Assembly (NCBI GenBank): GCA_963826525.1
Contig: CAWGXH010000005.1
Span: 295,933 to 359,932, forward strand
From: an uncultured Methanomicrobiaceae archaeon
Lineage (GTDB): Archaea > Halobacteriota > Methanomicrobia > Methanomicrobiales > Methanoculleaceae
Reading direction: 5' to 3'
DNA length: 64,000 nt
In this document: positions 20,149 to 45,455 of the stretch, one piece after another
Layout of the letters: every line of letters starts with the position of its first letter
Position numbering within the stretch: position 1 is the stretch's first letter
Program-made: the position numbers and the translations under genes
Notes under the pieces: model-generated
Databases searched by the model: none
Told to the model about the DNA's origin: nothing
What the model saw: only the letters and a program-made list of their open reading frames with translations

Positions 20149-20301
20149 TGGGGTCGGTGAGATTTGAACTCACGATCGACGGGTCTCTCCGACATGCATC
20201 AGTGCTCCAACGGGTCATCATCTCTTCATCAGGAGACCCATTGTTCATCACATGCAAAGACCGCTGGAGCCCGTCGCCATTCCTGACTAGGCCACGACCC
20301 C
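20149..20301 (-). tRNA. tRNA-Trp(CCA) with a 79-nt intron at position 37/38
   Basis: GGGGTCG/CGACCCC acceptor, ACGGG-CT-CCA-G | intron | A-CCCGT anticodon arm, GTGAG-TTCAAAT-CTCAC T arm. Confidence 0.95.
20185..20263 (-). ncRNA. Intron-encoded box C/D guide RNA of pre-tRNA-Trp
   Basis: C (GTGATGA), D' (CTGA), C' (ATGATGA) and D (CTGA) boxes. Guides are complementary to the C39 and C34 regions. Confidence 0.9.
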
Positions 20302-30207: not shown

Positions 30208-30318
30208 TCAGGCCGCGTCTTCTTCGTCAAAATCCGGAGCGGGTGAAGGAGCGACTCTGCCGCTGCCGAACCGGGCGGCGAGGGGGTGACCGTCCCCCCG
30301 TCCGGGATCACATCGCGA

Positions 30319-32704
<2,386 letters not shown>

Positions 32705-34485: not shown

Positions 34486-34922
34486 AGCATGTTCACCTCA
34501 TAGGTGCCCCCCCTTGGTGACCGGATAGCAATGAATGCATCGCTGGTTCCGCACCCGTCCAGCAGCCCGGGTAGATCCGGATACGGTTGCCGCACGTATC
34601 GCTGAATACGTGACGAACGAACCGGAGCAATGCGGCAGGCAAAAATCGTCCTCAACCATTCCGCTTTCTCCCCACGGAGTCCGTCGTATGCCCGGGCCTT
34701 CCCTGCATGGTTACCTCCGAAGAGACTCCTGACCGGGCACACGAGATCGATCCGTCGGTATGGCGGCAATCCGCTGCGCTCTCAACAGAAATGATGAGGT
34801 CAATTCCAGAATCCGCACATTTGCGCGAGAAAGTATCGCGAAAGAGGGAGGGGGAGGGGCTCGTTCCCCAACCGGTAGAAACCCTGCCCGGCCTGTCTTC
34901 CGGCCTGCACCGGCAGACCCGT

Positions 34923-35427
34923 TCACCGGGTCATCAGCGCGTGGATGCCCCGCAGGATATCGATCGGTTCCGGTGGATTGCCCGGGACCTTCAGATCGAC
35001 GGGGAGGACGGCGTCGACTCCGCCGAGGACCGCGTAGGTCCCCCGGTAGATCCCACCGTCGCACGCGTCGTCTCCGACCGCTATGACGTACTTCGGGGCC
35101 GGCATCGCTTCGTAGGTCTTCTTCACCGCAACCTCCATGTTCCGCGTCACCGCACCGGTGACGAGAAGGAGGTCCGCGTGGCGGGGCGACGCGACGAACG
35201 AGATGCCGAACCGTTCTACATCGTAATGCGGAGACGAGAGCAGGTTTATCTCGATCTCCGTCGCGTTGTCGCTCCCGGAGTCAAGTTCGCGGATGGCGAG
35301 GCTCCGCCTCATCCTATCGTCGACGGCCGCCTTCAATTCCCTGCCGATCGCCTCGAACTCCGGGTCGGAGAGAGGGATATCTTCGGTCGTTTTCCGGGAG
35401 ATAACATTCCTGAGGTACTGGTAGCAT
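34923..35427 (-). CDS. NuoB/HyfI-like small subunit of an Ehr-type complex, lacking the Fe-S cysteines (1-nt shift just after the start)
   Basis: YDVERFGISFVASPRHADLLLVTGAVT and PKYVIAVG are family motifs. Ligand sites read GSDNAT, GDDAC and PGNPP. Confidence 0.85.
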
Positions 35428-35437
35428 TCCTGTCACC

Positions 35438-37021
35438 TCATAGATCGGTCCCGGCGTACGAGAGGTTGAGGCTCTTGTTGATCACCGGGAAGTCTGCCAC
35501 GATGTTCCCCATCACGGCGTGCTGGATCGCCTGCCAGGTGCAGAACGATGCTGTCCTGACCGAGTAGCGGTCGATCCTGCCGTCTCTCACCCGGACCCAG
35601 TGGACGTTCTGCCCGCGGGCGGACTCGACCATCCCCCGGGCATATCCGTCCGGCACGCCGTCGTCCTCTGCGATCACCGGCCCGTTCGGCAGGTGCTCGA
35701 GGCACGAGCGGATCATCGAGAGCGAATCCATGACCTCGGACGCCTTCAGGCTGAACCGGGCGAGCACATCTCCGCCGGTAAGTGTCCGCACCGGCGGTAC
35801 GATCTCGGCGTAGGCACCGTACGGGTGGTCACGGCGGACGTCGCGGTTCGCTCCCGATGCACGAGCGGCTGGCCCTGTGATGTGGAGCGGGCGGACAAGC
35901 CGCGGCTCGATGATACCGGTCGTTGCAAAGCGGTCGATGACCGTCGGCGAGGCGAGGACGATCTTCAGCGAATCACGGAGCCGTTCCTCCGCACCGGGCA
36001 GGAAACAGGATAGGCTCCGGATCCGGTCGTGCGAGATATCAGCGTCGACCCCGCCGATCCTGACGGCGCCCCGCATGAACCGCGACCCGGTCAGATCCCG
36101 GTTCATGCGGAAGAACTCCTCGCGGAGCACCGTGAAACGGTTGGCGCCGACGGGATACGCGACATCCACGAGCATCCCGGCCAGATCCCCGAGATGGGAG
36201 CAGATCCGTTCGAGCTCGGCGTAGATCGTCCGGAGGTATTCCGCACGGTCCGGGACGTCTATCCCTGCAATCTTCTCGATCGCAAGCGAGAACCCGAGGG
36301 CGTTCGCGACACTTTCGTCGCCGCTGATCGCTTCGGCGACGGCGACGCACTCGCGCGGTCTCTTCCCTTCGGCGAGTTTCTCTATACCCCGGTGTTTGTA
36401 GAACATCCGCACCTCGAGGTTCGCGATGGTCTCGCCGATCACGCTGAACCTGAAGTGGCCCGGCTCGATAATTCCCGCGTGCACCGGCCCGACCGGGATC
36501 TGATACACGCCCTCCCCCTCGACCGGCATAAATCGGTACTCCTCCTCGGGGGTGATGGCGGTCCTCGGCGAGAATGGTCTGTTGGGAACCGATCTCTTCA
36601 GCGGGTGGAAGCCCTCGGGGTAACACTCGTGGAGGACGAGCCTTCTTTTATCGAACGCATCCGGAAAATCGATCCCGAAGAGGTCACGGATCTTGCGCTC
36701 GTACCACGACGCCGAGGAAAAGATGCGGTCGACGGAGGGAGCCGATCCCTCCTCGAGAGTGCACGAGAGCGTGAGAGTCTCCGGGATGCCCGGTTTTTCC
36801 ATACAGTAGAGCAGACCGGTTCTCTCCTCACGGTCGAACCCCTCGACACAGGTTATATCGACGAGCTCGAAGCCCCGTTCTGCGGCCAGGCTGCAGAACA
36901 AGACGATCTCGCCGGGGTTAATCCCGACGGAGACCTCTCCGGGCAGGATCCGTTCGGGAACGGTGCCGGGTTTCAGTATCCCAAGCTCGGCGAGCATATC
37001 TCCTTCAGTCACGTTAGACAC
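35438..37021 (-). CDS. NuoC/D-like (HyfG-like) large subunit without NiFe-binding motifs (Ehr-type)
   Basis: WYERKIRDLFG, GPVHAGIIEPGHFRF, YKHRGIEK, ELERICSHL. EAISGDES and ADFPVINKSLNLSY replace both CxxC motifs. Confidence 0.9.
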   Translation of the reverse strand: MSNVTEGDMLAELGILKPGTVPERILPGEVSVGINPGEIVLFCSLAAERGFELVDITCVEGFDREERTGLLYCMEKPGIPETLTLSCTLEEGSAPSVDRIFSSASWYERKIRDLFGIDFPDAFDKRRLVLHECYPEGFHPLKRSVPNRPFSPRTAITPEEEYRFMPVEGEGVYQIPVGPVHAGIIEPGHFRFSVIGETIANLEVRMFYKHRGIEKLAEGKRPRECVAVAEAISGDESVANALGFSLAIEKIAGIDVPDRAEYLRTIYAELERICSHLGDLAGMLVDVAYPVGANRFTVLREEFFRMNRDLTGSRFMRGAVRIGGVDADISHDRIRSLSCFLPGAEERLRDSLKIVLASPTVIDRFATTGIIEPRLVRPLHITGPAARASGANRDVRRDHPYGAYAEIVPPVRTLTGGDVLARFSLKASEVMDSLSMIRSCLEHLPNGPVIAEDDGVPDGYARGMVESARGQNVHWVRVRDGRIDRYSVRTASFCTWQAIQHAVMGNIVADFPVINKSLNLSYAGTDL

Positions 37022-38498
37022 CTCCGAAGCCGAGTTCGGCGACGATCTGCGAGATCACCGAGACCTCCTGCACCGGGAACCAGAGTCCCTGGATCGTGAT
37101 GATGACGATAAGCAGGACAAAGGGCAGGCGCATCCCGAGTGGGACCGCATAGCGGTGCGGCTGCCGGCCGTCCGCCTCAGATCTGGCCGAAAACTCACGG
37201 ATCAGGAACCGTGCCATGCCCGCGACCGTGATCATGATAAGGAAGAGCGTCGCCGCAAGGAGCCAGGGGGAGACGGTCGCTATCTGGGTGAGCAGGAAGA
37301 ACTTGGTGTAGAAGATCGGGAACGGCGGCATGCCGACGATGGCAAGGGCGCCGACGATCATGCCCCAGGCGGCCGAAGGCTGCAGATCGAAGACATCGAC
37401 GATCCGGTCGTCCGCCCCCGGTTCGTGGTTCCGGTACTGCCGATGAAGAATTCCCGCCGAGAGGAAGAGCGATGCCTTCGTCAGCGAGTGGGCGAGCATG
37501 TGGATGACCACCCAGAAGATCGCGAGGGGCGACCCGACGCCGATGCCGAGGAGGAGGAGACCCATATTCTCGATACTCGAGAAGGCGATGAGTTTCTTGA
37601 GGTTCGTCTGGTAGAGCATCGCAAAGGATGCGATCCCGACCGAGAGGAGACCCGATACGAAGAGGATCAGGGAGACCCTCTCCGCGATCGGGGTCTGGTG
37701 AACGAGGGCGAAGACCCTGATGATCCCGTAGATGCCGACGTTGAGAAGAGCGCCCGAGAGGATGGCGCTCACGGCCGACGGTGCCTTCGAGTGGGCGTCG
37801 GGAAGCCAGGTGTGGAACGGGACGACACCCGATTTGGCGGCGAATCCGATGAAGAGGAAGACGAAGGCGGCAAAGAGCAGGGTCGGCGGGAAGGAGGCGG
37901 CGTGCTGCATCAGCACCGTCCAGGTGAGCGTCCCCTCCCCGAGGGTGCTCCGCGCGGTTTCGAAGAGGAAGATGATACCGGCAAACGAGAAGAGCATCGC
38001 GATGGATGCAATGAAGATGTACTTCAGTGCGGCGTCGATGTTCTCCCGGGCAGCAAGGATCGCAACGAGCAGGGCGGAGAATACCGTCGTCAGTTCGGCG
38101 AGGATCCAGAAGAGCCCGAGATTATCTGCAAAGAACGCAAGGGTGACGAAGAGCTGGAGGAGCGCAAGGCCGATATAGAAGAGCCGAAGGTTCTTCGGGT
38201 GAAGTTCGCCGGTCTCCATCAGCCGTTCGGTATATCCCCCTGCGTAGATGCTTGCGAAGAGGAAGACGATACCGGAGACGACGGCCAGGAAAACGCCGAG
38301 ATGGTCTGCAAAGAAGATCCCGCTTCCGAAATCAAGGTTGGCCTTCGGCAACGGCACGGTCAGGATAAGGGTGCCTGTTACGGCGAGAAGCGCGGCGCTC
38401 TCGACGGCGGCGAGGATGTGCAGGATGCGGCGATGCCCTATCAGCGCGAAACCGATGATCGCGGCGAGCACGATGAGCGGATAGGCGACGAGGATCAT
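37014..38498 (-). CDS. HyfF-like antiporter-type membrane subunit
   Basis: WILAELTT, AALKY, KSGVVPFHTWLPDAHSKAPSAVSA, IAFSSIEN, HSLTKASLF. Confidence 0.9.
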   Translation of the reverse strand: MILVAYPLIVLAAIIGFALIGHRRILHILAAVESAALLAVTGTLILTVPLPKANLDFGSGIFFADHLGVFLAVVSGIVFLFASIYAGGYTERLMETGELHPKNLRLFYIGLALLQLFVTLAFFADNLGLFWILAELTTVFSALLVAILAARENIDAALKYIFIASIAMLFSFAGIIFLFETARSTLGEGTLTWTVLMQHAASFPPTLLFAAFVFLFIGFAAKSGVVPFHTWLPDAHSKAPSAVSAILSGALLNVGIYGIIRVFALVHQTPIAERVSLILFVSGLLSVGIASFAMLYQTNLKKLIAFSSIENMGLLLLGIGVGSPLAIFWVVIHMLAHSLTKASLFLSAGILHRQYRNHEPGADDRIVDVFDLQPSAAWGMIVGALAIVGMPPFPIFYTKFFLLTQIATVSPWLLAATLFLIMITVAGMARFLIREFSARSEADGRQPHRYAVPLGMRLPFVLLIVIITIQGLWFPVQEVSVISQIVAELGFGGV

Positions 38499-39187
38499 GG
38501 AGCGTCCTCCCGCACGGTCCAGAGCGAATACTGTTTGAGTTTCTCTTCGTAGGCTTCGAGGGTGGAGTCGATACCGACGGTCAGGATTGTGGTCAGGAGT
38601 ACCAGGATGATGAGATCGATCATGATCATGACTTCCATGATGAACGGGAGTTCGGTGACGCAGATACCGAAGAGGAGGAGTCCGTTCTCCATCGAGAGAA
38701 AGCCGAGCACCTTGGTGATCGCCTTCTTCCGCGAGAAGACGACGAGCATTCCCATCAGCATCAGCGAGATCCCGATGACGGCGCCGAAGAAGAACGTCGG
38801 TTCGGACTCCGCATAGGTCGATAGGATGTTGCCGAGAGAGAGGTAGACGCCGATGATCAGCGCTATGGAGACGAGGATCGAGCTCGCGGGTGCCAGGTAA
38901 TGGAACTCCAGGTCGCGGCGGATACTGATCCGCTCCTGGATCTCTCCGATGAAGTACGGAATGATGAGCACCTTGCTCGCGACCGTGAGAGCGGCGATCC
39001 AGAGGAGAATGGTGCTTCCTTCCACGAGGGAGAATACCACCGCAAGTACTGCAAGCAGGAGCGACTGCAGCCGGTAGGTCGTGAGCAGGGCGGGAAGCGA
39101 CCGGGTCGATATCAGGAAGACGGCCGTGATGACGACCGCGGCGAAGATGAACCTGACGATGCCGTCGAGGGATAAGATTTCGGTCAT
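38495..39187 (-). CDS. HyfE-like membrane subunit
   Basis: YRLQS, KVLIIP, GFLSMENG. Confidence 0.85.
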   Translation of the reverse strand: MTEILSLDGIVRFIFAAVVITAVFLISTRSLPALLTTYRLQSLLLAVLAVVFSLVEGSTILLWIAALTVASKVLIIPYFIGEIQERISIRRDLEFHYLAPASSILVSIALIIGVYLSLGNILSTYAESEPTFFFGAVIGISLMLMGMLVVFSRKKAITKVLGFLSMENGLLLFGICVTELPFIMEVMIMIDLIILVLLTTILTVGIDSTLEAYEEKLKQYSLWTVREDAP

Positions 39188-40125
39188 GCGAACACCTCGA
39201 TGAAGATCGTGAGCACCGAGAAGAAGTAGGCGATGATGAAGAGGTTCGGGAGGGAGAAGAGCCGCATCTTCGCGATAGAGGACTCAAAGAGACCGATGAT
39301 CACCGAGATGACCGATCCCTTCACCGCAAAGAGGGCCATGGCGAGGAGGATGCCGCCCGCCGAGAGTTCGGTCACGAGCCCGAAAGGCATCAGCACCGAG
39401 ATCAGGATGGCGATGAGGAGCGTCTGCTTGATGGCGCCGGCATACTCCATCATTGCCAGGTTTCGTCCCGACTGTTCGAGAACCATGCCTTCGTGCACCA
39501 TGGTCAGCTCGAGATGGGTCTCCGGGTTGTCGACCGGGATCCGGCCGGTCTCGACGATCAGAATGATGAAGAGCGAAACGGCAACGAGGATCATCGTCAC
39601 GCTCGCCGGGAAGAATGCTCCCGCCGTCTCCCGCGCGATATCGAGAAGGTTGAGCGATTGGGCAACGACGGCGAGCGCCGCCAGGACGACGATGGAGGTC
39701 GGTTCGATGACGGCTGCAAGGCTCATCTCCCGCGAGGAGCCCATCCCGCCGAAGGCGCTTCCGGCGTCGAGGCCGGAGAGCGCCGTAAAGAACCGGGCCG
39801 TCCCGAGCAGGTAGAGGAAGAGGATGACGTTCCCGAATCCGGCCACCGGTTCGGGGACGTACAGCAGGGGCACGAAGAGCGTCGCGACGACGGCCATGCT
39901 CAGGCAGACATAGGGAGTGACCCGCATGACCCACGAGGAGGCCGATGAGTAGACCGTCTCTTTCCCGAGGAGCTTTGCGATGGTGTAGTACGTCTGGAAA
40001 AGGCTCGGTCCGCGCCGTCCCTGCGACCAGGCCTTCACCTTCTTGATCAGGCTCATGAAGAGCGGTGAGATCAGGAGAACGAAACCGATGTTCAGCAGTG
40101 CGAAGACGATGAAGGAGCCGTTCAT
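39184..40125 (-). CDS. HyfC/NuoH-like membrane subunit
   Basis: QGRRGPS, FGGMGSSRE, ETGRIPVDNPETHLELTMVHE. Confidence 0.9.
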   Translation of the reverse strand: MNGSFIVFALLNIGFVLLISPLFMSLIKKVKAWSQGRRGPSLFQTYYTIAKLLGKETVYSSASSWVMRVTPYVCLSMAVVATLFVPLLYVPEPVAGFGNVILFLYLLGTARFFTALSGLDAGSAFGGMGSSREMSLAAVIEPTSIVVLAALAVVAQSLNLLDIARETAGAFFPASVTMILVAVSLFIILIVETGRIPVDNPETHLELTMVHEGMVLEQSGRNLAMMEYAGAIKQTLLIAILISVLMPFGLVTELSAGGILLAMALFAVKGSVISVIIGLFESSIAKMRLFSLPNLFIIAYFFSVLTIFIEVFA

Positions 40126-42063
40126 ACGAACCACCCCATGCCGAGCACCAGGATGACGATGCTCACGAAGATATAGAGTACGTAGGTATCCAGAGTTCCC
40201 GCATGGAAGTTTCGGACGAGCGAGGAGACGGCGAGGGCTCCCCGGGCCACCGGGAGGTAGAGGTACTCCTCGAAGAACCTGATCAGCGAGATCTCGGCGC
40301 GGGCTCCTGCCACGATCGCCCGGTCAGGGTCGAGCCAGGTCTTCTCGATCTTCTTATTTGTCCGGTATACGGAGGAGAATATGGTGACCACGGGCTCTGA
40401 GTATCCCGTTCCCGTATACTCCATCCGACCGTTCTGGGAGAGGAGGCCGCATCCCCACGTCTCCGCAACCCGCGTTTCCCGCGAGGCGGTTGCCGCCACC
40501 GCGAGGAAGACGGCGCCGAGGGTTATGGCTATCAGCATGCCGACGACGAGCATGTCGGGCAGGGGGAGGTCGTAGCCGAGGACCGAGAAGATTCTGGAAC
40601 GAACCGATACCCGTTGCCACGCAGAGGCCGGCCAGGATCCCGGGCCCGATAAGCATCGACCTGCACGGTTCCTCCGCATGCATGGCACGGTCCGACCGGG
40701 GAAGGGCAAGGAAGGTGATCCCGAAGGCCTTGACGAAGCAGGCAGCCGCAAGGGCTCCGGTCAGGGCGAAGAGCGAGAGGGCGAAGATGAGGAGAACCTT
40801 CGTGAGCGGATCGACGACCTGGAGGCCGAAGAAGAGCGACTCAAAGAGCATCAGTTCGCTGATGAAACCGTTCAGCGGCGGGAACGCGGCGATGGCGATC
40901 GCTCCTACGGAGAAGAGGCCCGCGGTGAACGGCATCCGGTGGACGAGCCCCCCCATCTCTTCCATGTTCCGGGTGTGGGTGGCGGCGACGACGGAACCCG
41001 CCGCCATGAAGAGGAGACTCTTGAAGAGGGCGTGGTTGAAGGAGTGGAAGAGAGCCGCAAGGAGACTGAGCGTCGAGAGCGCCGGCATGCCGAGGTCGGA
41101 GAAGATCACGGCGAGACCAATCCCGCCGAAGATGATCCCGATGTTCTCGATGCTGCTGTAGGCGAGCAGACCCTTGATATCGGTCTCTTTATAGGCATAA
41201 ATGATCCCGAGGATCGCGCTCGCGGTGCCGAAGAGAAGAATGACGGCGCCCCAGGTGAAGTCGAGCCTGAATATATCGAGGACTGCGCGCACGAGGCCGT
41301 ATACAGCGACCTTCAGCATCACGCCCGACATCAGGGCGGAGATATTCGAGGGGCTGGCCGGGTGGGCGTACGGAAGCCACTTGTGGAACGGGATAACGCC
41401 TGCCTTGACCGCGAAACCGAGGAAGAGGCAGAGGAATGCCGCGAGAGCCCCGGGGGAAACGAGCGGCGAGGCCGGGATGAGGGCAAATGTCCCCGTCTCG
41501 CCGTAGAGGAGAATAAAGCCGATAAGGAGGAAGACCGTGGAGAGCTGGGTCATCACCGCGTAGAAGAGTCCTGCCCGTCCGATCCCTTCGCTCTCGAAGT
41601 CGTAGAGGACGAGGAGAAGCGAAGCGACGGCCATCATCTCCCAGAAGACAAGGAACTGGATTGTGGTTCCGGCGAGGATCACCATTCCCATCGAGAGGAG
41701 GAAGAGGTTCATCAGGGAGACGAGCAGGTTCCTCCGCCGGGGATGGTCGCAGTGCTCCACGTATCCGAAGGAATAGACGGCATCGGCGATGCCGACGACG
41801 CCCAGGATCAGAAGGAAGAGCGCCGAGAGTCTGTCGAGCACGACGGTGAAATCGACTCCGGGGAGCAGATGCCAGAGCGTCGCGGAGACGGTCGTATCCT
41901 GCAGGAGCACCGGAAGTGCGGCTCCCGCAAGGAAGGCTGATCCGAACCCGGTCGCGATGAGCGAGATCGTCCGGACATGCGTATCCTCCCGCCTGATGAG
42001 GAGGGGGAGGGCGGTGCCCAGAAGGAGCGCGAAGAAGCCGGCAAACAGGAGGTAAAGAGTCAT
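40122..42063 (-). CDS. HyfB-like antiporter-type membrane subunit (frameshift near 40590)
   Basis: FWEMM, KAGVIPFHKWLPYAHPASPSNISALMSG, LAYSSIEN, PPLNGFISE, and C-terminal TWGCG...MEYT. Confidence 0.9.
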
Positions 42064-42090
42064 TCCTATCACGTCCGTTGATTGTTCCGG

Positions 42091-42699
42091 TTATACTCGC
42101 GCCTTGCCCGGTTCCCGCTTCATGGGCGTGACCTCAAGGGTCTCCAGTGATCCGCTATTGAAGCTGAACCGCTCCCGGATCGTCTTAGGAAGTTCCCTCT
42201 CGAGGATAGTGAAAAAACCGAAAGATGCGTAAAAACCGACGAGCTCGGTGCGGGAGTGCATGTACAAAACCTCCCGCTCACCACATTCGCGGATGAGAAG
42301 ATCCATCAGTTGTCTGGCGACTCCCCGGCCCCGATACTCGGGAAGAACGAAGACGCCGTCCACGTCGTACCCGTCCGGATGCGTGCGGCACCGGGCGGCA
42401 CCGATAAGGTATCCTCCGATCAACGCTCCGAAGATCCTGTCGCTGCCCGGATGCGCCTTCTGGTCGTGGTAGTGGCTCCATACCTCTCTTTCGACACGCA
42501 GGAACTCGTGGGGAAAGAGTTCGCGTATCTCAAGGCGGCCTTCGATCCCCGTGGATGCCTGCGCTGCACGTGTCTGGCGGAATTTTCTCTTCAAACCTTC
42601 AATAGTCCGAACATCCTCGGCAACGATCGTCTGGAGCGTGAGGAGGGACAGATCTTCATCGGGATTATGAATGCTATGCTCTGGCATATCGGAAATCAT
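42091..42699 (-). CDS. GNAT family N-acetyltransferase
   Basis: VFVLPEYRGRGVA, FYASFGF. Confidence 0.85.
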   Translation of the reverse strand: MISDMPEHSIHNPDEDLSLLTLQTIVAEDVRTIEGLKRKFRQTRAAQASTGIEGRLEIRELFPHEFLRVEREVWSHYHDQKAHPGSDRIFGALIGGYLIGAARCRTHPDGYDVDGVFVLPEYRGRGVARQLMDLLIRECGEREVLYMHSRTELVGFYASFGFFTILERELPKTIRERFSFNSGSLETLEVTPMKREPGKARV

Positions 42700-42912
42700 G
42701 CTGTATCGTGACCTCGTACGGAATTTATTCTGGAGTCATGGAGATCTCAGGGCCTCACGGCATGCCCGCCGGATAGTGAAGTGCCGGGCACGAGAACCTG
42801 CGGAACGCTGGTGATTCCATGCGCGTTGAAAATAGGCCTCCCGAATTCAAATCGGCAATCTCGAGAGGTTTTTTAGGTTGATTATCGAGTGTATCACCAG
42901 TAAGCGTCCTTG

Positions 42913-43674: not shown

Positions 43675-45455
43675 ATGGCACCACTGACCGAAACCACCCG
43701 GATACTCATCATCGGCGTCCTGCTCGGGATATCGGTCTTTCTGACGTACTATTTTCACCTCGTCCTGCAGGTAGGGACCGTCTTCTCCCACTTCTTCTAC
43801 ATACCCATCATCCTCGCCGCGCTCTGGTGGGGGAGAAAGGGCGTCCTCGTGGCGTTCTTTCTGGGCGGGCTCGTTCTCGCGAGTCACTTCCTCTTCAGAA
43901 CCGAAGTGGTGACCTTCAACGACTACGGACGTGCGCTGATGTTCGTCGTGGTCGCATTCGTCATCGCCTCGCTCTCCGAGCGACTGAAGAGCCAGCAGAA
44001 GGATACCGAGAAAGAGCGTGACCGGGCACAGGGCTACCTGGACGTGGCTGCCGTCCTGCTCGTCGTCATCAACGCGGATCAGACCATCGGCCTCATCAAC
44101 CGCCGCGGCTGCGAACTCCTGGGATACCGGGAGGATGAACTCGTCGGGAAGAACTGGTTCGACGTAGCCATCCCGGAGCGGATCCGGGAGGACACCCGGC
44201 AGGCATTCACGCACCGGTTATCCGGGATAGCCTCGTCGTATGGGAGTGATGAGTATGTCATCGTGACGAAGGGCGGGGATGAACGCACGCTCATCTGGAG
44301 GGGGGCCATTCTGAAGGATGCCGGCGGCCGCACCACCGGGATCATCGGGTCGGGGAAGGACATCACCGACCGGATCCGGGCGGAGAAGGCGCTCAGGAAC
44401 AGCGAGGCCCAGCTCCCGCGACGATCTTCGAGAACCTGAACGAAGGATTGGTCGTCGCCGACCTCGACGGCAACCTGCTGCATTGGAATCGTGCCGCCCA
44501 AGAACTGTACGAACTGCCCGGCCTTGGGGAAATACTGAGTAATCAGAGCGAATTCGGTGCGCTCTTCGAGATTTCGACCATAGACGGCACCGTCCTTCCG
44601 ATGGAAAAGTGGCCTCTGTCCCGCATCCTGCACGGGGAGCACCTTCGGGATATGGAAGTGACGGAACCGGCGCATCGGGACCGACTGGCAGCGCATATTC
44701 AACTTCGGCGGCAGCCTCGTCCGCGACACGGACGGCAATCCGCTCATGGCGGTGGTCACGTTCACCGACATCACCGGGCGCAAGCAGACGGAAGAAGCCA
44801 TTCTGGCGGCGAACGAGGAGGCAAACCTGTACCTCGACATCATGGTGCACGACATCAACAACACCAATTCGGTAGCACTCGGGTACAGCGATCTCCTCGA
44901 TGGAGAGTGGAAGGGGAAAACCGGGCGATGGCGCAGAAGATCCGATCGGCCGTCAGCCGGAGCATCCAGATCATCCGGAACGTCTCCACGATCCGGCGTC
45001 TCCGCTCACCGAACCCCGCCCTGAAACCTGTCGACCTCGACGCCGTGATCCGGGCAGAAATAGAGCAGCATCCCGAGACCAGCATCCGGTACAGCGGCCG
45101 GCCGGCCTTTGTCAGAGGCGACGACCTCCTCCCCGCGATATTCACCAACCTCGTCGGCAACAGCATCAAGTTCGGCGAACCCGATGTCGTGATAACGATC
45201 CGGGCCCTTGAGCAGGACGGCGAGGTGCTGGTCTCGGTCGAGGACACGGGCCCGGGCATACCCGATGCGATGAAACCCACGCTCTTCTCCCGGTTCAGGA
45301 AGGGGAAGAGTAAGAGAAGCGGCAAGGGTCTCGGCCTCTACATCGTGCGGATGCTCGTGGAGCGCTATGGCGGCAGGGTCTGGGTGGAGGACCGGGTGCC
45401 GGGTCACCCCGAGAAGGGGGCGGCATTCCGGTTCACGCTGCGGAAGGCGCGATAA
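43675..45455 (+). CDS. Membrane PAS-PAS sensor histidine kinase (several frameshifts near 44417, 44665, 44905)
   Basis: Four-TM N-domain, PAS domains, H-box DIMVHDINN, NLVGNSIKF, DTGPGI, GKGLGL. Paralog of 54900..56687. Confidence 0.85.

What the first reader, a model, noticed from the sequence alone, without database searches (positions are those of the whole stretch)
34923..42063. Ehr-type complex-I-family membrane machine apparently without any redox cofactor
Seen: six overlapping genes (HyfB-, C-, E-, F-, G- and I-like). The large subunit lacks both NiFe CxxC motifs (EAISGDES; ADFPVINKSLNLSY), which is established for Ehr complexes. Unusually, the NuoB-like subunit has also lost all four canonical [4Fe-4S] ligands. 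GSCNGC reads GSDNAT, VGDCA reads VGDDA, and PGCPP reads PGNPP. The codons (GAC, ACG, GAC, AAT) each differ from Cys codons by at least 2 bases, so they are not indel errors, and the flanking motifs remain conserved. No NuoI/HyfH ferredoxin gene is in the operon. Inference: a conserved, non-redox ion-coupled device, for example a pmf-driven CO2/bicarbonate or ion transporter analogous to DabAB/MpsAB. Alternatively it has a novel Asp/Asn-ligated metal site.
Basis: partly seen in the sequence, partly recalled or inferred. Interest (0 to 1): 0.85.

Follow-up and report, generated by a model that had tools for sequence, protein, structure and literature searches.

The report
Cofactor-free Ehr complex of a methanogen
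This is a six-gene relative of membrane hydrogenases and respiratory complex I that has lost every usual metal-binding site yet is tightly conserved, so it probably moves ions without moving electrons; the family (Ehr) is already named but its job is untested.

Summary
Window 34923-42072 (minus strand) carries ehrABCDLS, the gene set named Ehr in Methanospirillum hungatei (PMC4704411). All four [4Fe-4S] ligands of the NuoB-like subunit are replaced (D54, T57, D121, N151). All four NiFe ligands of the large subunit are replaced too (S233, E236, S521, G524). No NuoI/HyfH-type gene is in the operon.

This is not strain decay. The same residues recur in 70-81 related loci from Methanomicrobiales, Methanosarcina and Bathyarchaeia. 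ehrS has dN/dS of 0.08-0.13 and is the most conserved subunit. The ion-path Lys/Glu residues of the membrane subunits are invariant.

It is not unusual either. About 20 of 130 typed NuoB-like cluster representatives lack all four cysteines, and this scan has noted cofactor-free Ehr complexes on other genomes.

Function is inferred: a non-redox, ion-coupled machine. Support for the CO2/bicarbonate idea is weak and confined to one lineage, where a beta-carbonic anhydrase lies beside the operon in 17 Methanoregula-type loci.

This copy has two uncompensated 1-base insertions, in ehrA and at the 5' end of ehrS. Reads could not settle whether they are real.

Verdict: a new member of a known kind. 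Coppi 2005 and Marreiros 2013 could not be read.

The parts
42091..42699 (-). GNAT-family acetyltransferase gene, 18 bp upstream of ehrA on the same strand; probably co-transcribed
   Evidence: PF00583, E 1.1e-14. An adjacent same-strand homologue occurs in 27 of 36 Methanomicrobiales-type loci with at least 0.8 kb upstream, in 0 of 22 Methanosarcina-type loci and in 0 of 6 Bathyarchaeia loci. It lies inside the block that is syntenic with L007-L009.
40122..42072 (-). ehrA (HyfB/NuoL-M-like antiporter-type subunit), frame broken by one extra base near 40592
   Evidence: PF00361 and PF00662. NF006418 positions 3-488 fall in ORF 40354-42072 and positions 487-644 in ORF 40122-40751. There is an extra A relative to L007, L008 and L009. 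TM5 Glu, TM7 Lys, TM8 Lys and TM12 Glu are present in 65 of 65 sequences.
39184..40134 (-). ehrB (HyfC/NuoH-like)
   Evidence: PF00146, E 2.9e-34. 101 of 316 columns are at least 97% conserved in 70 sequences, including the equivalents of E. coli NuoH R46, K70, E71, R148, E157, R209, D213, E220 and E228.
38495..39187 (-). ehrC (HyfE-like, with a NuoK-like C-terminal half)
   Evidence: NF008556, E 5e-14, below the cut-off. Membrane carboxylates E167, E185 and D191 are invariant in 72 sequences.
37014..38495 (-). ehrD (HyfF/NuoL-like antiporter-type subunit)
   Evidence: NF006427, 610.9 bits, above the cut-off of 511. TM5 Glu and TM7 Lys are present in 67 of 67 sequences. The equivalents of His338 and Lys342 are present in 66-67 of 67. 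The TM12 position is Lys in 58 and Glu in 9.
35438..37021 (-). ehrL (fused NuoC-NuoD / HyfG-like large subunit without NiFe ligands)
   Evidence: PF00329, PF00346 and PF00374. Against HycE 7z0s_E, the NiFe cysteines read S233, E236, S521 and G524, the same in 70 of 70 sequences. 148 of 527 columns are at least 97% conserved, including both rebuilt motifs and the GPVHAGIIEPGHFRF loop.
34923..35427 (-). ehrS (NuoB/HyfI-like small subunit without Fe-S ligands), frame broken by one extra base near 35415
   Evidence: PF01058. Ligand positions read D54, T57, D121 and N151 against HycG and MbhJ. 69 of 168 columns are at least 97% conserved in 81 sequences. dN/dS is 0.08-0.13. The AlphaFold2 model has pLDDT 94, and its best structural matches are MbhJ, HycG and PSST. 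There is an extra C relative to L007-L009.

Best explanation
The region is an ehrABCDLS operon, the same gene set as Methanospirillum hungatei Mhun_1817-1822, in a Methanomicrobiales archaeon. It encodes a six-subunit membrane complex descended from group-4 [NiFe] hydrogenases and complex I.

Shown:
- The large subunit has none of the four NiFe cysteines.
- The small subunit has none of the four [4Fe-4S] cysteines.
- There is no NuoI/HyfH ferredoxin subunit, and no other strictly conserved cysteine set exists in any subunit.
- The replacement residues, and the motifs around both vacated pockets, are invariant across a clade spanning Methanomicrobiales, Methanosarcina and Bathyarchaeia.
- The small subunit is the most conserved subunit.
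- The Lys/Glu chain of both antiporter-like subunits is intact, as are the NuoH-like carboxylates and the NuoD-type loop.

Inferred: the complex still translocates H+ or Na+ through the complex-I-type membrane arm, but it is not driven by electron transfer through metal clusters. The rebuilt, carboxylate-rich hydrophilic pocket (EhrS D54, D/E121, N151; EhrL S233, D235, E236) most likely binds a proton, cation or small ligand. It would couple or gate ion movement by the same electrostatic and conformational relay that complex I uses. In this reading the complex is a redox-independent ion translocator or antiporter-type device.

The physiological substrate is unknown. The two 1-base insertions in this copy are probably assembly errors or very recent lesions.
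For: - Family assignment.
- Ligand loss shown against solved homologues. The codons were checked.
- Ligand loss across the clade: EhrS D54, D121, C123 and N151 are at least 97% conserved in 81 sequences. EhrL reads S/E/S/G in 70 of 70. Four more distant members at 55-59% identity read D, A, E, N and S/E/S/G.
- No obligatory Cys set: the EhrL cysteines at 58, 225, 245 and 494 are each replaced by S, A, G or V in some members, and 50 of 70 members have all four.
- Gene order: pieces covering at least 85% of each subunit were found in 65-81 of the 81 sequences taken (80 fetched loci plus the window).
- Selection: dN/dS for the window against L007-L009 is 0.08-0.10 for ehrS and 0.16-0.37 for the other subunits.
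- Fraction of invariant columns: EhrS 0.41, EhrB 0.32, EhrL 0.28, EhrA 0.24, EhrC 0.20, EhrD 0.18.
- Membrane arm: TM5 Glu and TM7 Lys are present in 65 of 65 and 67 of 67 sequences, with the other residues as in NuoM and NuoL. NuoH-type residues are kept.
- The EhrS fold is confidently predicted without the cluster (pLDDT 94) and superposes on MbhJ (TM 0.87, 1.9 A).
- The same genome has three paralogous NuoB-like genes that keep all four cysteines, so the organism does make normal versions.
- No redox-partner gene is conserved beside the operon in all three lineages.
Against: - No experiment on any member was found.
- Papers on M. hungatei still list Ehr among ferredoxin-reducing hydrogenases (PMC4704411 passages; PMC11087674 legend).
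- A non-cysteine or organic cofactor cannot be excluded from sequence alone.
- A related Cys-free clade (Solirubrobacteraceae) is often fused to a ferredoxin domain, so loss of the NuoB cluster does not by itself prove loss of redox function.
- The very high conservation of the hydrophilic arm suggests a specific chemistry that a plain antiporter would not need.
- This copy has two frame breaks.
- Four long aminoacyl-tRNA synthetase genes elsewhere in the genome are intact, so sequencing error is not proven.
Confidence: 0.55

Rival explanations
1. Still a redox enzyme. Under this reading the vacated pockets bind a non-canonical cofactor, such as a flavin or deazaflavin, a metal held by Asp, Glu, Asn or His, or a cluster supplied by a partner. 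Alternatively two substrates exchange a hydride directly, as in proton-translocating transhydrogenase, and that drives ion pumping.
For: - The hydrophilic arm is the most constrained part of the complex.
- Ligand positions 1, 3 and 4 are strictly D, D/E and N in the methanogen clade.
- Clade-specific invariant His, Asp and Glu residues line the former NiFe motifs.
- A related Cys-free clade carries a fused ferredoxin domain.
- Held papers assume electron transfer (PMC6349859 and PMC10432482 passages).
- From recall, not from any call: the NuoB fold is flavodoxin-like.
Against: - No ferredoxin, flavoprotein, formate dehydrogenase or NuoEF-type gene is conserved next to the operon across lineages.
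- No nucleotide- or flavin-binding Pfam domain was found in the six proteins.
- Relatives in the same supported Cys-free clade have Gly or Ala at ligand position 3.
- Position 2 varies between T and A.
- C123 is Val in one member.
Confidence: 0.2
2. Energy-coupled CO2/bicarbonate interconversion. This is the first reader's example, analogous in principle to DabAB/MpsAB or to cyanobacterial NDH-1 with CupA. CO2 hydration in the hydrophilic pocket would be pulled by proton removal through the membrane arm.
For: - A beta-carbonic anhydrase gene (PF00484, E 2.5e-48) lies 1.0-1.7 kb upstream, divergently oriented, in 17 loci. These are 12 of 21 Methanoregula-type loci and 5 of 8 unnamed Methanomicrobiales loci with at least 2.5 kb upstream.
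- All hosts are CO2-fixing anaerobes (established knowledge).
Against: - The linkage is confined to one lineage. It is absent from 0 of 22 Methanosarcina-type loci, 0 of 6 Bathyarchaeia loci, 0 of 3 nearest relatives and the window. This genome's only PF00484 gene is on another contig.
- There is no DabA or CupA-type domain and no recognisable Zn site.
- A neighbouring ordinary carbonic anhydrase could equally be unrelated synteny.
Confidence: 0.1
3. In this particular genome the operon is a recently inactivated pseudogene cluster. The two frameshifts would be real, whatever the family does elsewhere.
For: - Two uncompensated +1 insertions relative to three relatives, in ehrA and ehrS.
- Four long aminoacyl-tRNA synthetase genes elsewhere are intact.
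- The operon is accessory in the order, found in 21 of 151 genomes sampled and not in the same-genus representative.
Against: - Unrelated neighbours are also frame-broken. Lon is split between its AAA and Lon_C parts, and a histidine kinase is broken. That points to local assembly error.
- dN/dS on the window's branch is as low as between intact relatives.
- The genome is 87.6% complete in 16 contigs, a profile compatible with indel-prone assembly (inference).
- Reads did not cover either site.
Confidence: 0.12

Closest known systems
Ehr complex of Methanospirillum hungatei JF-1 (ehrABCDLS, Mhun_1817-1822), called 'Pmh' by Anderson et al. 2009
   Same: The same six-gene composition and naming, a methanogen host, and a large subunit lacking the NiFe cysteines. 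Homologous operons were reported in Methanosarcina (PMC4704411 and PMC2686161, passages read).
   Different: Those papers do not mention loss of the small-subunit Fe-S ligands, and they treat the complex as a ferredoxin-reducing hydrogenase.
Ehr (Ech-hydrogenase-related) complex of Geobacter sulfurreducens, GSU0739-45 (Coppi 2005; class surveyed by Marreiros et al. 2013)
   Same: A membrane complex with NuoL-like, HyfE-like, large (EhrL) and small (EhrS) subunits, no NiFe site and unknown function (PMC7894505 passages).
   Different: It is bacterial, and its subunits were more abundant with formate (PMC7894505). Its small-subunit ligand state was not examined here. The founding papers are not held, so what they say about EhrS is unknown to me.
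E. coli formate hydrogenlyase / hydrogenase-4 (HycE-HycG, Hyf; PDB 7z0s)
   Same: It is the best solved sequence match of both hydrophilic subunits: EhrL E 6.5e-73 and EhrS E 8.4e-31. Fold and subunit order are the same as in hyfB, C, E, F, G and I.
   Different: FHL has the NiFe site, the proximal 4Fe-4S cluster and ferredoxin-type subunits. Here all eight ligands are replaced and no ferredoxin subunit is encoded.
Pyrococcus furiosus membrane-bound hydrogenase MBH (PDB 6cfw)
   Same: The EhrS model superposes on MbhJ (TM 0.87, rmsd 1.9 A over 132 columns). Both combine an Mrp-like membrane arm with a hydrogenase-like arm.
   Different: MBH is a true ferredoxin-oxidising, H2-evolving enzyme with three clusters and a NiFe site.
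DabAB/MpsAB and cyanobacterial NDH-1 with CupA (energy-coupled CO2 hydration)
   Same: The resemblance is one of principle only: a complex-I-type antiporter-like subunit coupled to non-redox chemistry.
   Different: No DabA or CupA homologue was found, and no Zn site was recognised. Those systems lack NuoB, NuoD and NuoH-type subunits (recalled).
Mrp-type multisubunit cation/proton antiporter
   Same: Two PF00361 antiporter-like subunits with the full Lys/Glu set, and a possibly redox-free mode of action.
   Different: Ehr has NuoH, NuoCD and NuoB-like subunits that Mrp lacks. It has no recognised MrpB, C, E, F or G genes in the operon.

Membership tests
Ehr (energy-converting / Ech-hydrogenase-related complex) | Operon of NuoL/M/N-like, NuoH-like, HyfE-like, NuoL/M/N-like, NuoCD/large-subunit-like and NuoB/small-subunit-like genes (ehrABCDLS) | tested here: met
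   The order is conserved in the related loci.
Ehr (energy-converting / Ech-hydrogenase-related complex) | [quoted passage not shown] | tested here: met
   The positions read S233, E236, S521 and G524 against HycE, in 70 of 70 clade members.
Group 4 membrane-bound [NiFe] hydrogenase (Hyf, Hyc, Ech, Mbh) | Four cysteine ligands of the NiFe centre in the large subunit | tested here: not met
Group 4 membrane-bound [NiFe] hydrogenase (Hyf, Hyc, Ech, Mbh) | Proximal [4Fe-4S] cluster in the small subunit and a 2x[4Fe-4S] ferredoxin-type subunit | tested here: not met
   The ligand positions read D, T, D and N. No ferredoxin-domain gene is in the operon.
Respiratory complex I / NDH-1 | Cluster N2 ligands in NuoB, and NuoI, NuoA and NuoJ subunits | tested here: not met
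   The equivalents of NuoB C129 and C158 are D121 and N151. No NuoI gene is present. NuoA and NuoJ were not looked for specifically.
Respiratory complex I / NDH-1 | Lys/Glu chain of the antiporter-like subunits and NuoH carboxylates (E. coli numbering recalled from the literature) | tested here: met
DabAB / MpsAB CO2-hydration pump | DabA/MpsB-type Zn-binding subunit (PF10070) next to a single NuoL-like subunit | tested here: not met
   None of the six operon proteins, and none of the flank proteins scanned, hit such a family. Only an ordinary beta-carbonic anhydrase was found, in one lineage.
Mrp antiporter | Seven-gene mrpABCDEFG set without hydrophilic NuoB or NuoD-like subunits | tested here: not met
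   The operon has NuoB, NuoCD and NuoH-like genes and only two PF00361 genes.

The most novel reading that the evidence does not exclude
The vacated NiFe and Fe-S pockets have been rebuilt into one conserved, carboxylate-rich site. It comprises EhrS D54, D/E121 and N151, and EhrL S233, D235 and E236, plus the invariant DFPxINKSxNLSYAGTD tail. This site would bind a cation or carry out a non-redox, proton-releasing or proton-consuming reaction, with CO2 hydration as the leading candidate. It would pass the charge change through the intact NuoD loop and NuoH relay to the antiporter-like subunits. That would make it a complex-I-type coupling engine running with no electron transfer at all.
Probability: 0.2. 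Interest if true: 0.85.

Novelty: new member of a known kind. Interest (0 to 1): 0.45.

Why it matters
Ehr complexes are widespread and named, but nobody has shown what they do. Papers on methanogens still count this one as a ferredoxin-reducing hydrogenase.

A sequence-level demonstration that the whole methanogen clade cannot hold the NiFe site or any canonical Fe-S cluster, while being strongly conserved, has two consequences. It removes Ehr from H2 and ferredoxin budgets in metabolic models. It also offers a natural test of whether complex-I-type coupling machinery can run without redox chemistry.

Members sit in Methanosarcina, which has a genetic system (recalled), so the question is testable by experiment.

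Tried and rejected
- Reads. Only one public run (X1, soil metagenome contigs) shared words with the operon, at 6%. When laid, it covered 12 of 30 bins and neither frameshift site. There is therefore no verdict on the insertions. No RNA holder was listed.\n- Riboswitch lead from earlier scan notes (fluoride-linked Ehr-like operons). No Rfam family other than tRNA and a C/D-box RNA reached threshold in the window, or in 7 of the 80 related loci, chosen to span the lineages.\n- CorA. This gene lies upstream of ehr in one Bathyarchaeia locus and is found in that locus only, so it was dropped.\n- Cysteines C58, C225, C245 and C494 of EhrL as a new cluster site. Rejected as obligatory ligands because each is individually replaced in some members.\n- Multiple independent losses of the cluster. 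The free tree needs 5 changes (at least 4 forced by well-supported branches). An AU test does not reject a single Cys-free clade (p 0.131), so this is unresolved.\n- Bacterial-type promoter and terminator scan: uninformative for an archaeon.\n- Literature. Searches found no held paper stating that EhrS lacks its Fe-S ligands, and none characterising an archaeal Ehr. Searches were swamped by 'electronic health record' and 'Ehrlichia'. Marreiros 2013 (PMID 23000657) is not held, and Coppi 2005 was not found in the library.\n- Supplements are closed. Supplementary Note 4 and Fig. 3 of PMC6349859, and Fig. S6b of PMC7304191, may describe small-subunit ligands.\n- complex prediction was not used, because EhrL with EhrS is a textbook pair.
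Full report
WHAT IS THERE

On the minus strand of window 34923-42072 lie six co-directional genes that overlap or abut. Pfam and NCBIfam identify them as follows.
- A HyfB-like antiporter-type subunit (PF00361, PF00662; NF006418).
- A NuoH/HyfC-like subunit (PF00146).
- A HyfE-like subunit (NF008556, below its cut-off).
- A HyfF-like antiporter-type subunit (NF006427, 610.9 bits against a cut-off of 511).
- A fused NuoC-NuoD/HyfG-like large subunit (PF00329, PF00346, PF00374).
- A NuoB/HyfI-like small subunit (PF01058).

This is the composition and order that the M. hungatei genome paper calls ehrABCDLS, Mhun_1817-1822 (PMC4704411, passages read). Anderson et al. 2009 described the same operon as a putative membrane-bound hydrogenase whose large subunit lacks the NiFe cysteines, with homologues in Methanosarcina (PMC2686161, passages read). 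A GNAT acetyltransferase gene (42091-42699, PF00583) sits 18 bp upstream on the same strand.

THE OBSERVATION

The phmmer alignments to solved structures put D, T, D and N of the small subunit opposite the four cluster cysteines of E. coli HycG (7z0s_G) and P. furiosus MbhJ (6cfw_J). They put S, E, S and G of the large subunit opposite the four NiFe cysteines of HycE (7z0s_E). No ferredoxin-type gene is in the operon.

- The small subunit is about 167 aa, like its homologues. Its ATG is at 35427, and the frame is then broken by one extra C near 35415.
- ehrA is split by one extra A near 40592. NF006418 positions 3-488 and 487-644 lie in two frames.

Three relatives at 83-87% DNA identity (L007-L009) lack both insertions and read ehrA in one frame.

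DECAY OR CONSERVED CLADE?

It is a conserved clade.
- The 120 best database homologues listed are 70-96% identical. The 14 that I aligned all carry GSDNA(T/A)E, VGDDACDGG and PGNPP.
- A scan of one genome per species returned 201 encoding loci, of which the best 80 were kept. The scan pattern was itself the Cys-free motif, so it could only find Cys-free members.
- These loci come from Methanofollis/Methanoculleus-type, Methanoregula-type, Methanosarcina-type and Bathyarchaeia records. They hold the six genes in the same order. Pieces covering at least 85% of each subunit were found in 65-81 of the 81 sequences taken (80 fetched loci plus the window).
- D54, D121, C123 and N151 of EhrS are each at least 97% conserved in 81 sequences.
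- The NiFe positions read S, E, S, G in 70 of 70 sequences.
- Four more distant members (55-59% identical), fetched from the order survey, read D, A, E, N and S, E, S, G. One of them has Val in place of C123.
- dN/dS between the window and L007-L009 is 0.08-0.10 for ehrS and 0.16-0.37 for the other five genes.
- By fraction of invariant columns, EhrS (0.41) is the most constrained subunit. It is followed by EhrB (0.32) and EhrL (0.28), ahead of the membrane subunits EhrA, EhrC and EhrD (0.24-0.18).
- Both rebuilt motifs of EhrL (E230, S233, G234, D235, E236, A239, N240, and D510 through D526) are invariant. So is the 16-residue NuoD-type loop V177-F192.
- An AlphaFold2 model of EhrS is confident throughout the ligand loops (mean pLDDT 94). 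It superposes best on MbhJ, HycG and PSST.
- The same genome has three paralogous NuoB-like genes with all four cysteines.

IS ANY OTHER REDOX SITE HIDDEN?

- No subunit hits a ferredoxin, flavin or nucleotide-binding family.
- The only strictly conserved cysteines are single ones: EhrS C123 and two in EhrA.
- EhrL has four frequent cysteines, at 58, 225, 245 and 494. Each is replaced by S, A, G or V in some members, and 50 of 70 members keep all four. The window itself has Ser at 245. They are therefore not obligatory ligands.
- A non-cysteine or organic cofactor cannot be excluded from sequence.

THE MEMBRANE ARM

I aligned the clade with E. coli NuoL, NuoM and NuoN, fetched. The residue numbers are recalled from the literature.
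- EhrA keeps the TM5 Glu, TM7 Lys, TM8 Lys and TM12 Glu in 65 of 65 sequences.
- EhrD keeps the TM5 Glu and TM7 Lys in 67 of 67, and the NuoL-type His and Lys in 66-67 of 67. Its TM12 position is Lys in 58 and Glu in 9.
- EhrB keeps the equivalents of NuoH R46, K70, E71, R148, E157, R209, D213, E220 and E228.
- EhrC has invariant membrane carboxylates.

The ion path and the coupling interface therefore look functional.

HOW UNUSUAL IS IT?

Not very.
- Of the 150 best representatives of 50%-identity clusters found with EhrS, 130 rows including the query could be typed at all four positions. Of these, 90 are C-C-C-C, 20 have no cysteine and 20 have one to three.
- The query lies in a supported (SH-aLRT 95) group of 12 rows. 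Eleven of them are Cys-free, but their residues differ: DADN, DAAD, STDN, SVGN, NEGD, SEGD, NEGN and DVEA.
- A second Cys-free group belongs to Solirubrobacteraceae, and many of its members are fused to a ferredoxin domain.
- The quick tree needs 5 changes of state. An AU test does not reject one Cys-free clade (p 0.131). One loss versus several losses is therefore open.
- Earlier notes of this scan report cofactor-free Ehr complexes on other genomes. They agree with what I tested here but are not independent evidence.

CONTEXT AND DISTRIBUTION

- Similarity to the nearest relatives starts and stops at the edges of the GNAT-ehr block, roughly 34919 to 42900.
- In a sample of the order, EhrS at E <= 1e-40 was found in 21 of 151 genomes and 8 of 33 genera. 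It was found in 10 of 12 genomes of one genus and 3 of 30 in the window's own family. It was not found in the same-genus representative.
- The operon is thus an accessory, probably exchanged, cassette (inference).
- No neighbour is shared by all lineages.
- The GNAT gene is adjacent in 27 of 36 Methanomicrobiales-type loci and in none of 22 Methanosarcina-type or 6 Bathyarchaeia loci.
- A beta-carbonic anhydrase (PF00484) lies 1.0-1.7 kb upstream, divergently oriented, in 17 loci of the Methanoregula type only. This genome's only PF00484 gene is on another contig.
- No riboswitch was found in the window or in 7 of the 80 related loci.

THE FRAMESHIFTS

- For assembly error: unrelated neighbours are also broken. 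Lon is split between its AAA part and its lid plus Lon_C part, and a histidine kinase lacks a continuous frame. dN/dS on the window's branch is also low.
- Against: four long aminoacyl-tRNA synthetase genes elsewhere are intact.
- The one public run that shares words with the operon does not cover either site.
- This is undecided. I lean towards error.

HOW IT MOST LIKELY WORKS

- Shown: loss of all eight canonical ligands, absence of a ferredoxin subunit, strong constraint on the hydrophilic arm and on the coupling loops, and intact ion-path residues.
- Inferred: the complex still moves H+ or Na+ but is not driven by electrons passing through metal clusters. The rebuilt carboxylate-rich pocket binds a proton, cation or small ligand, and it gates or drives translocation through the complex-I-type relay.
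- I give this reading 0.55.
- The rivals are a non-canonical redox cofactor or direct hydride transfer (0.2), energy-coupled CO2 hydration (0.1, a special case of the non-redox reading), and strain-specific inactivation (0.12, which concerns this copy only).

NOVELTY

The family and this very operon type are named in print, and its NiFe loss is in print. In seven searches of the held library I found no statement of the small-subunit loss, and no functional study of an archaeal Ehr. The two founding papers (Coppi 2005; Marreiros 2013) could not be read, and supplements are closed. I file it as a new member of a known kind, with moderate interest. The interest comes from the unanswered question of what a cofactor-free complex-I-like machine does, and from the presence of members in genetically tractable Methanosarcina.

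Noticed in passing
window 30308-32704 (-): The Lon protease gene is split by a frameshift. The LON substrate-binding and AAA domains lie in one ORF, and the lid and Lon_C domains lie in an overlapping ORF in another frame.
   Followed up: partly
window 43675-45455 (+): A DUF4118-PAS histidine kinase lacks a continuous frame. PAS and HATPase_c lie in separate ORFs. By eye, the H-box region lies in a third ORF (44746-45024), which gave no Pfam hit.
   Followed up: partly
window 20149-20301 (-): A tRNA gene spans 153 bases with a C/D-box sR3 RNA (RF01133, 59.3 bits) inside it, that is, an intron-borne guide RNA.
   Followed up: no
L060:1728-2336 (-) and 16 other Methanoregula-type loci: A beta-carbonic anhydrase gene lies 1.0-1.7 kb upstream of ehrA, divergently oriented. 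Beyond it, in 21 loci, lies a small five-cysteine protein with no Pfam family, for example L012:1176-1538.
   Followed up: partly
P0316-P0420 (relatives of P0188): Cys-free NuoB-like domains of Solirubrobacteraceae are commonly fused to a ferredoxin domain (PF13459, PF00037), giving proteins of about 260 aa. This is a different way of living without the NuoB cluster.
   Followed up: no
window ~34919-42900 versus L007-L009: DNA similarity to the nearest relatives begins and ends at the GNAT-ehr block, and the operon is patchy in the order (21 of 151 genomes). This suggests transfer as a cassette.
   Followed up: partly
Methanosarcina-type loci, e.g. L050:11854-12639 (+): A FilR1-type regulator gene (PF08350) lies about 1 kb downstream of ehrS in 25 Methanosarcina-type loci.
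   Followed up: no
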